From Octopus sinensis (lineage: Eukaryota): a stretch of DNA of 64,000 nucleotides. Below the pieces are notes generated by a model. It saw only the letters and a list, made by a program, of their open reading frames with translations, did no database searches and was not told the DNA's origin. Shown piece by piece: positions 309 to 60,626 of the stretch; the stretch's first letter is position 1; the number at the start of each line of letters is the position of its first letter. The stretch lies in assembly GCF_006345805.1 (NCBI RefSeq), contig NC_043012.1, forward strand, positions 18,538,001 through 18,602,000, in the 5' to 3' direction. Both the position numbers and the translations under genes were made by a program.

Positions 309-525
309 TATAACAATGATAAATATCAAAGTGAGTTATATACAGTAGCGGTAACACATCGTGACGTATTTTTGCCATTTCAATATGGCTAACCCCTAAG
401 GGTGGATGCTACTGTAGTTTTTAGCCCCAGGAGGACACACTCCTCCAGCTGGCCATAGACACACTATCTGTGTCCTGTCAGTATTTGCAAAGGGAAGTCA
501 TCCTTCCCGTCTTCAACTTATGATA

Positions 526-570
526 CACACGGACTCGAGTTTCGAGGTATTGACCTCTCGTCAGCGTGTG
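526..570 (-). ncRNA. type I hammerhead ribozyme, copy 1
   Basis: Minus strand: CACACG CUGACGA GAGGU-CAAU-ACCUC GAAA CUCGAG UC CGUGUG; all core nucleotides present; stems I and II pair perfectly; predicted GUC cleavage between 532 and 531. Confidence 0.9.
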
Positions 571-878
571 ACAATCATAGTTGTCGCCGAGAATTAGATT
601 TCCTTCACAAATACTTATACTTTTTCCAGCGTCCACTGTCGCTGATATTGAAAAAGTGAAATCAAACAATGATAAATATCAAAGTGAGTTATATACAGTA
701 GCGGTAACACATCGTGACGTATTTTTGCCATTTCAATATGGCTAACCCCTAAGGGTGGATGCTACTGTAGTTTTTAGCCCCAGGAGGACACACTCCTCCA
801 GCTAGCCATAGACACACTATCTGTGTCCTGTCAGTATTTGCAAAGGGAAGTCATCCTTCCCGTCTTCAACTTATGATA

Positions 879-22638: not shown

Positions 22639-23780
<1,142 letters not shown>

Positions 23781-41339: not shown

Positions 41340-42190
41340 TATCCAATTTTTTAAGAACGGCCTCTGGCACCCAACGATAGAGCAATTTACTTGTGCTAAT
41401 TTTGAAACCTTGTTTTAAATTGACTCCTCGTTTAATTATAGAAGGCCGGGAGTCCCTAAACCATGTTGGTGAAAAAGTGGCTAAAGATATAATCCTAGTC
41501 GCATTTGACGAAACGAATCTATACACGAATATCTTTTATGGATTGGGATTAGAAGCCGTCGATCACAAGATAGACATTTACTCACAAAGAACTCAGGACA
41601 GATTCTCAAATGTGTTTGACCTTGAAGGACTGGTACTGGAAACCAATTACATCGTCTTTGATACCCTACAGATACAAAGCACGGAAAAAGGGAGAGTAAC
41701 ACCGACGGTTTCCTAACTTGGAATGGAGCACTTGAAAGGTAACTTTTATACTTTGTCTAATATTACCTGTAATCAACATTTCCAATCCTTATGAATAGGG
41801 AGCTGGGAAAGATACTTGTGTGACTGCTTACTATTTTGGAAACTAAACGTGGATATTACAAGATTCGTTTAATTAATAATAAGCAAGCATGTCACAATCC
41901 AGCTCCCTATGGAAATAAATAAAATACAGCTTCATTTTCTGAACATTCTAATAACAAAATAATATGAGACAGGTAGAACCGATCTCTATTCCAATGGCAC
42001 TTATGAAACTAATAATTAGATATTACATCTTGTAACCCTTCCCAAACTAGCCACAAAACTAGCCTACCGTTCAATATAGCAAGACATATATGCTCTATAG
42101 TTACAGACACAAATAGACTTGAGAAACGATTGATAGAATCAAAAATACCTTCTCAAACAGAAACAAGTACCTCCATCGAAAAAATAAGAA
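41340..42190 (+). pseudogene. decayed Penelope-like element reverse transcriptase
   Basis: ILVAFDETNLYTNIFYGLGLEAV...RFSNVF...VLETNYIVFD, WERYLCDCLLFW (YxDD site decayed), LPFNIAR, LLKQK in Penelope RT order. Confidence 0.8.
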
Positions 42191-53930: not shown

Positions 53931-54842
53931 TGATTTTCAGTGTTTGATGATTAGATTTTGTCACACAATTGAATAAATAAAATCACGAAAATTGCATGTA
54001 ATAAAATCAATTGCTAAATAGTGTGCTTCGAAGTTATACTGGAAGTACCATTTGCTTTCCCTCGTGTGTCTGGTTACTTAAGATGCTCGCAAAATCATAA
54101 ATAGTGAGTCTTGACATCTCGTATATATTTTAGTCTTCAATTCTGTTTTCTGCATGTAACCTAATTCCGTCACTTTTAACTTTTTTTCTATTTCCAAACA
54201 TTAATCTCTATTTTTCTTGAATGTTAAAAAGAATATGGTGGCATTACTTTATAAGGTAGTACTTAAATAATAAGTTGTCTTTCGAAATCAAATTTTTTAG
54301 TCAAATTCAATAACAATATGAATATTGTTCGATGTATTTTATAAAAGGAAACAAATCAGTAACAAATGGTAACATCTACAGCAGCAACATCAGAAATCAT
54401 ATTAAAAACATTATCACATTGATGATAAAAAAATATGGTGATCTTTACGTATCGCATATTAAAATCTCTCATAACAGCGTCTTACTGGTATTGAGTTTAT
54501 CAACAATGGTGTATGATGTATGTGAGGAACAATATAAGTTGTCCAGTATGTATTGCTGAAAAAAGGACAATCCTATTTGCACTAGATGAAGTATAATAAA
54601 TAACCGATGTTAAAGAAGTCAAATATTTTCTAGCGATCAAAGGTTTTAGAAGAATATTAAAAACACCACATACGCAGAGATGTACGCATAAAGCCTAGTC
54701 ATACATATCCACATACGCGCATGCACATATATGTGAACACAAACACACAGACGCACACAGACATACATACACAAACACGCACAAACACACACATATATAT
54801 ATTGGTGTGTGTGCCTGTTAGTAGTAGTTATATAGTTAGATA

Positions 54843-56808: not shown

Positions 56809-57014
56809 GTGTGTGTCTTTGCTTGTGTTTGTGCGAATCACTATTTATGATTTTGCGAGCATCTTAAGTAACCAGACACACGAGGGAAAGCAAATGTTAC
56901 TTCCAGTATAACTTTGAAGCACACTATTTAGCAATTGATTTTATTAAATGTAATTTTCGTGATTTTATTTATTCAATTGTGTGACAAAATCTAATCATAA
57001 AACACTGAAAATCA
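53931..57014. repeat. 177-bp inverted duplication (53931-54107 versus 56838-57014)
   Basis: Reverse-complement match with only a handful of differences. Confidence 0.9.
56480..56730 (+). mobile_element. degraded SINE family 2 body and tail
   Basis: tgtgtttgtcacc...ttgacgac...gaataagtaccaggctt...aaaagataaaagata. Confidence 0.6.
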
Positions 57015-59897: not shown

Positions 59898-60001
59898 TAT
59901 GTGTGTGTATAGATATATATATATTATATATATATATATATCGTGACGTATTTTTGCCATTTTAATATATATGTGTGTGTGGGTGTAGACATGTTACATA
60001 C

Positions 60002-60055
<54 letters not shown>

Positions 60056-60085
60056 TATGTAAATATATATATGAGCATATATATG

Positions 60086-60123
<38 letters not shown>

Positions 60124-60127
<4 letters not shown>

Positions 60128-60587
60128 CGTATTTTTGCCATTTCAATATGGCTAACCCCTAAGGGTTGATGCTACTGTAGTTTTTAGCCCCAGGAGGACA
60201 CACTCCTCCAGCTGGCCATAGACACACTATCTGTGTCCTGTCAGTATTTGCAAGGGAAGTCATCCTTCCCGTCTTCAACTTATGATACACACGGACTCGA
60301 GTTTCGAGGTATTGACCTCTCGTCAGCGTGTGACAATATAGTTGTCGCCGAGAATTAGATTTCCTTCACAAATACTTATACTTTTTCCAGCGTCCACTGT
60401 CGCTGATATTGAAAAAGTGAAATCAAACAATGATAAATATCAAAGTGAGTTATATACAGTAGCGGTAACACATCGTGACGTATTTTTGCCATTTCAATAT
60501 GGCTAACCCCTAAGGGTGGATGCTACTGTAGTTTTTAGCCCCAGGAGGACACACTCCTCCAGCTGGCCATAGACACACTATCTGTGT

Positions 60588-60590
<3 letters not shown>
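60124..60590 (-). mobile_element. second locus of the 353-bp hammerhead repeat (about 1.3 units)
   Basis: gtgacgtatttttgcc at 60124 and 60475 (period 351, two 1-bp deletions); (TA)n on both sides. Confidence 0.88.
60288..60332 (-). ncRNA. type I hammerhead ribozyme, copy 3
   Basis: Core and stems identical to 526-570. Confidence 0.9.

Positions 60591-60626
<36 letters not shown>

What the first reader, a model, noticed from the sequence alone, without database searches (positions are those of the whole stretch)
60124..60590. Second retrozyme locus 60 kb away is circularly permuted and sits in (TA)n
Seen: nearly identical to the first locus and in the same orientation, but it starts and ends at different points of the unit (gtgacgta...tgtgtcct versus aacaatga...ttttccag). 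Both loci are longer than one unit and abut TA repeats. Inference: arbitrary endpoints and greater-than-unit length fit rolling-circle reverse transcription of a circular template and insertion into TA microsatellites, rather than local satellite expansion.
Basis: partly seen in the sequence, partly recalled or inferred. Interest (0 to 1): 0.75.

Follow-up and report, generated by a model that had tools for sequence, protein, structure and literature searches.

The report
Hammerhead retrozyme copy with Penelope footprint
This is one of hundreds of near-identical copies of a small non-coding repeat carrying a predicted self-cutting RNA motif; its copies start at only two fixed points beside TA repeats, which likely marks copying by a Penelope-type retrotransposon enzyme, possibly from a circular RNA.

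Summary
Locus 60124-60590 is real in the assembly: 1.32 units of a 353-nt repeat, 99% identical to locus 1 and collinear with its bases 361-829, between TA tracts, with one type I hammerhead on the minus strand. "Arbitrary endpoints" is wrong. Only RNA-5' ends vary. About half the loci are head-to-head two-armed insertions, with one A and one B end (26 AB, 0 AA, 0 BB, 5 off-site). This is the Penelope-like element (PLE) tail footprint; an autonomous PLE and a 68%-identical sister family here show it too. Repeated copying of one template is supported: near-private variants are shared by all units and both arms, and ends are not enriched at the ribozyme cut. A circle is likely but unproven; the partner enzyme is unidentified. 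The scan found this pattern before on other DNA of this genome.

The parts
60124..60590 (-). Locus 2: single-armed insertion, 1.32 units of the 353-nt repeat (RNA sense is the minus strand); carries one hammerhead only
60288..60332 (-). Type I hammerhead ribozyme motif; predicted cut after GUC between 60294 and 60293
   Evidence: Rfam RF00163, 32.2 bits (gathering score 34), E 3.4e-6; cleavage not tested
60124..60124 (-). RNA-3' end at fixed site B (unit phase 50, untailed end), joined to (TA)n; inferred priming point
   Evidence: 141 + 186 exact TA-site-B junctions in the genome; 51 of 92 ends in the unbiased sample
60426..60474 (-). Internal copy of the 49-nt tail between site A (phase 1-5) and site B; site A is the end used by locus 1
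   Evidence: 72 + 97 exact TA-site-A junctions; loose TA ends at 60426, 60429 and 60475 in run X15 contigs
60590..60590 (-). Variable RNA-5' end (phase 165), joined to (TA)n
   Evidence: 5' ends spread over phases 18-350 in 202 arms
59998..60123 (.). Left (TA)n tract
60591..60625 (.). Right (TA)n tract
59942..59968 (-). 27-nt mini-copy starting at site B (phases 49-75) inside a TA-rich tract; likely an aborted insertion
   Evidence: blastn E 9e-8; alignment; a similar 0.08-unit solo copy is L109
312..982 (-). Locus 1: single-armed, 1.90 units, RNA-3' end at site A (tailed), non-TA 5' flank, two hammerheads (570-526, 923-879)

Best explanation
Locus 2 is a single-armed copy of a young, dispersed, non-coding 353-nt hammerhead repeat whose RNA-3' ends sit at two fixed sites beside (TA)n, and it was likely inserted by a Penelope-like retrotransposon enzyme copying one unit-length RNA template, probably circular, more than once. 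Shown: the anatomy, the two sites, the one-A-one-B rule of two-armed loci, the variable 5' ends, and the within-locus sharing of variants. Inferred mechanism: (1) a locus with two hammerheads is transcribed, self-cleaves and is ligated to a circle; (2) a PLE protein binds the structured region around site B and nicks a TA tract; (3) one target strand primes reverse transcription at site B and the other at site A, about 46-49 nt further 3'; (4) each cDNA runs through the ribozyme junction and stops at a variable point; (5) the two cDNAs are joined head to head. When only the B arm survives and is joined back into TA, the product looks like locus 2. With one hammerhead, locus 2 could not release a unit-length RNA itself.
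For: Ends: 85 of 92 RNA-3' ends at A or B in 59 loci chosen only for an exact hammerhead core; of 31 inverted insertions, 26 AB, 0 AA, 0 BB, 5 with one off-site end. In junction-selected sets the other end was the opposite site in 19 of 19 and 20 of 21. A control junction at an internal phase gave 0 matches against 496 at A and B. An autonomous PLE family here has a 36-nt optional tail and tailed/untailed arm pairs. A 68%-identical sister retrozyme family uses homologous sites (10 AB pairs, no AA or BB, among 23 loci). The footprint matches PLE descriptions (PMC8557442, PMC3846280) and the two internal start sites shown in vitro (PMC11167929). One template: five common variant sites were mixed within a locus in 2 of 440 cases; 25 near-private variants are in every pass in 20 loci, 17 of them in both arms, against 0.06 expected from independent errors; single-unit variants recur between loci no more than by chance (108 observed, 113 simulated). 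No run-off or scar at the cut: 9 of 202 5' ends against 7.3 expected; difference rate 1.0% against 1.6% overall in 281 crossings. Single B arms stop 3.1-fold more often near whole-unit lengths (28 of 44, p 2e-4).
Against: No partner was identified: neither PLE family examined shares sequence with the unit, and the 3'-end alignment was no better than shuffles (230 of 500). The hammerhead scores below the Rfam gathering threshold and was not assayed. PMC11167929 found that uncleaved RNA is the main substrate of its PLE in vitro and saw no start-site difference between strands, which argues against a required circle and does not predict the AB rule. The whole-unit stopping excess used a window chosen after seeing the data, is absent in two-armed loci (ratio 1.24, p 0.30), and the same region has many first-pass stops (0.35 per 100 nt), so structure or TA microhomology can explain it. 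282 of 444 variants at multiply covered sites are in one pass only, including T at 60167 in locus 2; I read these as later mutations or assembly errors but did not show it. 'Private' means at most 2 of 155 sampled loci.
Confidence: 0.62

Rival explanations
1. PLE-type insertion, but from a linear template: an uncleaved multimeric read-through transcript, or a linear monomer copied repeatedly by seamless template jumps. No circle is needed.
For: Hammerhead cleavage was dispensable and unprocessed RNA was the main substrate for a PLE in vitro (PMC11167929). An uncleaved multimer also predicts no stop at the cut site. Arrays of up to 7 units exist as possible sources.
Against: Near-private variants occur in all passes of long arms (L045 7 of 7 and 6 of 6; L077 4 of 4) and single-unit variants are not passed between loci beyond chance. 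Linear copying cannot lengthen arrays. No scar or stopping excess at the cut argues against jumps at cleaved ends.
Confidence: 0.25
2. One reading: rolling-circle reverse transcription with arbitrary start and end points, followed by insertion into TA.
For: Arms exceed one unit (120 of 202) and 5' ends cover the whole unit; this is the model proposed for retrozymes (PMC7229834, PMC7761336).
Against: 85 of 92 RNA-3' ends lie at two sites and two-armed loci pair them strictly; both window loci start at those sites.
Confidence: 0.04
3. Single short insertions later amplified and inverted at the DNA level (unequal crossover, gene conversion, foldback repair), giving tandem units and shared variants.
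For: Whole insertions are locally doubled at a few loci (L007, L069, L145).
Against: Foldback of one arm would give AA or BB pairs, and none was seen among 71 inverted insertions. Copies are about 96-100% identical, so they are young.
Confidence: 0.06
4. Locus 2 is an assembly artefact copied from locus 1.
For: One locus occurs twice with its flanks on two chromosomes (L025, L097). Two 1-nt deletions in locus 2 are contradicted by contigs in all four laid runs.
Against: Locus 2 has its own flanks, a different canonical 3' end, and lacks the locus 1 variant at position 804. Its junction type occurs 141 times in the genome and in run X15 contigs.
Confidence: 0.03

Closest known systems
Metazoan non-LTR retrozymes (Cervera and de la Pena 2020, PMC7229834, passages and Discussion read; PMC7761336, passages; Li, Clavereau and Pollet, bioRxiv 10.64898/2026.07.22.740005, parts 1-3 of 5 read)
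   Same: Non-coding unit of about 350 nt, type I hammerhead in each unit, tandem copies, no LTR, stable fold (z -5.7), PLEs present in the genome.
   Different: In what I read, those papers do not map insertion ends; they argue for PLEs from co-occurrence, shared hammerheads and pLTR homology. Here the link rests on the insertion footprint, and no homologous pLTR was found.
Endonuclease-bearing Penelope-like elements (Craig et al. 2021, PMC8557442, passages; Adineta Penelope, PMC3846280, passages)
   Same: 5' truncation, partial tandems, inverted 5'-truncated second arm, optional tail on one arm, microsatellite or TA targets.
   Different: No ORF; tail of 44-49 nt against 30-40 nt; a hammerhead with a short helix III rather than a minimal one; arms are multiples of one short unit.
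Poseidon of Anolis in vitro (Frangieh et al. 2024, PMC11167929, parts 1-2 of 4 read)
   Same: Two internal start sites that bound the tail; both target strands cut and extended; AT-rich target; predicted dimer.
   Different: That study saw no strand difference in start site and used a linear template. Here the genomic arms pair A with B strictly and run for several units.

Membership tests
Non-LTR retrozyme | Type I hammerhead motif in a short repeat unit | tested here: met
   RF00163 match with intact core, 32.2 bits, E 3.4e-6, just under the gathering score
Non-LTR retrozyme | Tandem units of a few hundred bases, dispersed in many copies | tested here: met
   353-nt period; 642 exact core matches; 34 of 202 arms exceed 2 units
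Non-LTR retrozyme | No protein-coding capacity | tested here: met
   No stop-to-stop frame of 120 aa or more over either locus
Non-LTR retrozyme | At least two consecutive hammerheads per active copy (criterion of Li et al. 2026) | tested here: not met
   Locus 2 has one hammerhead; locus 1 and many family loci have two or more. Locus 2 is a truncated member.
Non-LTR retrozyme | Self-cleavage of the RNA | not testable with these tools
   Needs an in vitro assay
Non-LTR retrozyme | Expression as circular RNA | tested here: inconclusive
   Only contigs of runs guessed to be RNA were available; they cannot tell a circle from a tandem
PLE-mobilised non-autonomous element | Two 3' termini separated by an optional tail | tested here: met
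   85 of 92 ends at A or B
PLE-mobilised non-autonomous element | Inverted 5'-truncated second arm, tail on one arm | tested here: met
   65 AB, 0 AA, 0 BB, 6 off-site of 71 inverted insertions; 40 of them had one end fixed by selection
PLE-mobilised non-autonomous element | AT-rich or microsatellite target | tested here: met
   78 of 92 3' flanks TA-rich
PLE-mobilised non-autonomous element | Sequence shared with the pLTR or 3' end of an autonomous PLE | tested here: inconclusive
   None with the two PLE families whose ends were fetched; other PLE families were not surveyed
Autonomous PLE | ORF with reverse transcriptase and GIY-YIG endonuclease | tested here: not met
   No ORF in the unit; 2 of 135 loci abut a PLE ORF directly at a short inverted piece

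The most novel reading that the evidence does not exclude
A Penelope reverse transcriptase dimer holds one ribozyme-made RNA circle and primes from both strands of a cut TA tract at two fixed, non-interchangeable sites. Site B fires first, both enzymes roll round the circle, and the genome keeps the event as one-A-one-B head-to-head arrays. Locus 2 and its 27-nt neighbour would be the B-only and aborted products.
Probability: 0.35. Interest if true: 0.75.

Novelty: new member of a known kind. Interest (0 to 1): 0.52.

Why it matters
How animal retrozymes return to the genome, and whether the circle is the template, has been proposed but not shown in the papers read here. A young family with hundreds of copies, two mapped start sites and a strict arm-pairing rule gives exact predictions for an in vitro assay. 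It also adds a constraint on the PLE insertion cycle, namely that the two target strands use different start sites. This single locus adds little by itself: it is a truncated, one-ribozyme product.

Tried and rejected
Arbitrary start phase: rejected. Excess of 5' ends at the hammerhead cut: not found (9 of 202 against 7.3). Locus 2 as daughter of locus 1: no support; both carry the commonest haplotype (42 of 123 loci) and locus 2 lacks the variant at 804. About 5 pairs within 60 kb are expected by chance for some 500 loci in 2.7 Gb (my arithmetic). My guess that the PLE in L090 has a B-like site 45 nt inside its end was wrong: its tail lies beyond that end. Retrozyme-PLE junctions in L077 and L042 as proof of a partner: not accepted. 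The L042 PLE is older (at most 96% to relatives) and ends off-site, and deletion of the outer arm explains both as well as a template switch does. RNA editing written back: 2 of 25 near-private shared variants are A-to-G in RNA sense, no excess. Expression: no RNA holder listed on record; a 383-nt contig (unit plus 30) in X1 fits a circle or a tandem equally. Presence/absence polymorphism and read support across the locus flanks were not obtained. Dropped rows: duplicate loci of the same cluster among L001-L030 (10 of 30 left out of the variant set), 7 of 30 sister-family loci that repeated a cluster, alignment pieces under 24 nt or 85% identity (90% for variants). L025 and L097 are one locus counted twice in the variant set. 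Literature: four searches returned no paper mapping retrozyme insertion ends; bioRxiv supplements of Li et al. were not seen and may bear on partner identity.

Full report
Observation. The stretch 60124-60590 is 467 nt and aligns to window 361-829 at 99.1% over 469 columns. It differs by one substitution of its own (60167), two 1-nt deletions, and the locus 1 variant at 804. Locus 1 (312-982) is 1.9 copies of a 353-nt unit. Numbering the unit from window 312 as phase 1, locus 2 runs from phase 50 to phase 165 of the next unit. It is a collinear part of locus 1, so 'permuted' means only a different start phase. TA tracts flank both sides of locus 2 but only the left of locus 1. A type I hammerhead lies on the minus strand at 60332-60288, so the left end is the RNA 3' end. 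The unit folds well (z -5.7) and has no long frame. A 27-nt fragment starting at the same left end lies 155 bases further left.

The family. An exact 35-nt hammerhead core occurs 642 times in the 2.7-Gb genome. I fetched all 59 loci behind the 100 listed matches (contigs C1 and C2), a sample chosen without regard to ends. I also fetched 76 loci chosen on a TA junction: 50 of 141 site-B matches and 26 regions from 72 site-A matches. Earlier scan notes call the genome octopus; I did not test that.

Ends are not arbitrary. In the unbiased sample 51 of 92 RNA-3' ends lie at phases 46-51 (site B), 34 at phases 350-5 (site A) and 7 elsewhere; 78 have TA-rich flanks. Exact TA junctions number 327 at B and 169 at A; one control at an internal phase gave none. 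Contigs of run X15 show loose TA ends at the same three positions; X15 may be the assembled sample. The 5' ends of 202 arms spread over phases 18-350. Of 61 insertions in the unbiased sample, 31 are head-to-head two-armed: 26 AB, none AA or BB, 5 with one off-site end. In the junction-selected sets the second end was the opposite site in 19 of 19 and 20 of 21. Single arms are mostly B (24 B, 4 A, 2 other). Their 5' ends rejoin TA in 33 of 54 B cases but 1 of 12 A cases (p 0.001). Loci 2 (B, TA on both sides) and 1 (A, non-TA 5' flank) fit this. I infer that B primes first and that lone A arms have lost their B arm.

This is the PLE footprint. PMC8557442 (passages) describes 5' truncation, partial tandems, an inverted 5'-truncated copy, a 30-40-bp tail on one end and TA targets. 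PMC3846280 (passages) places the tail on one of the inverted repeats. PMC11167929 (parts 1-2 of 4) shows that the tail lies between two internal start sites and that both strands are cut and extended. Two controls in this genome agree. A young PLE with a C-terminal GIY-YIG domain (Pfam hits below the cut-off) has a 36-nt optional tail, with tailed and untailed arms paired in the 7 inverted insertions I could read among 30 loci. A sister retrozyme family, 68% identical, uses homologous A and B sites (10 AB pairs, no AA or BB, 23 loci). No sequence link to either PLE family examined was found, so the partner is unknown.

One template, probably circular. In 155 loci, five common variant sites were mixed within a locus in 2 of 440 multiply covered cases. 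Twenty-five variants seen in at most two loci are present in every pass in 20 loci, 17 across both arms; independent errors would give 0.06. Variants seen in one pass only (282 of 444) recur in other loci at the chance rate (108 against 113), so unit-specific changes are not inherited as a linear multimer would predict. Copying does not stop at the ribozyme cut (9 of 202 ends against 7.3) and leaves no scar in 281 crossings, which argues against a cleaved linear monomer. Single B arms stop more often near whole-unit lengths, as expected if the enzyme meets its own cDNA; that test is post hoc and has a structural rival. These results favour a circle but do not prove it, and the in vitro PLE study found uncleaved RNA to be the main substrate.

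Locus 2 itself. It has one hammerhead and so would be a dead end. Nothing ties it to locus 1 beyond the commonest haplotype. Another locus (L038) has the same two endpoints with unrelated flanks. Read support across the flanks was not obtained, so locus-level assembly is not independently confirmed.

Verdict. A real but ordinary member of a non-LTR retrozyme family. The family-level footprint ties retrozyme spread to PLE enzymes and makes the circle question testable. Four paper searches returned no study mapping such ends. Earlier scan notes on other DNA of this genome reached a similar reading; my reading was formed before the look-up, and those notes are not independent support.

Noticed in passing
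window 59942-59968: 27-nt site-B mini-copy 155 bases left of locus 2, same orientation; possibly an aborted priming event.
   Followed up: partly
L077 (1-1923 with L091) and L042 (845-1625): PLE reading frames in sense orientation stop mid-ORF and join a short inverted retrozyme piece followed by a full arm; template switch or later deletion, not resolved.
   Followed up: partly
L201 1937-2308; L215-L244: Sister retrozyme family, 353-nt unit, 68% identical, homologous A and B sites; its hammerhead core reads UUGACGA instead of CUGACGA.
   Followed up: partly
L043, L090, L170-L199: Young autonomous PLE family (about 98% between copies) with C-terminal GIY-YIG, a minimal hammerhead-like motif near its 3' end, a 36-nt optional tail and TA targets.
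   Followed up: partly
L025 (C18) and L097 (C2): The same insertion with the same flanks on two chromosomes; segmental duplication or assembly redundancy.
   Followed up: partly
L007, L069, L145, L052, L225: Whole insertions doubled in tandem with their TA spacers.
   Followed up: no
L038 (C1:60127921-60128389): Same start and end phase as locus 2 but unrelated flanks and different variants.
   Followed up: yes
window 41483-42144: Degenerate PLE reverse transcriptase fragment (tblastn, best 42% identity).
   Followed up: no
window 23055-23161 / 23674-23780 and 53931-54110 / 56835-57014: A 107-nt exact direct repeat and a 180-nt 97% inverted repeat.
   Followed up: no
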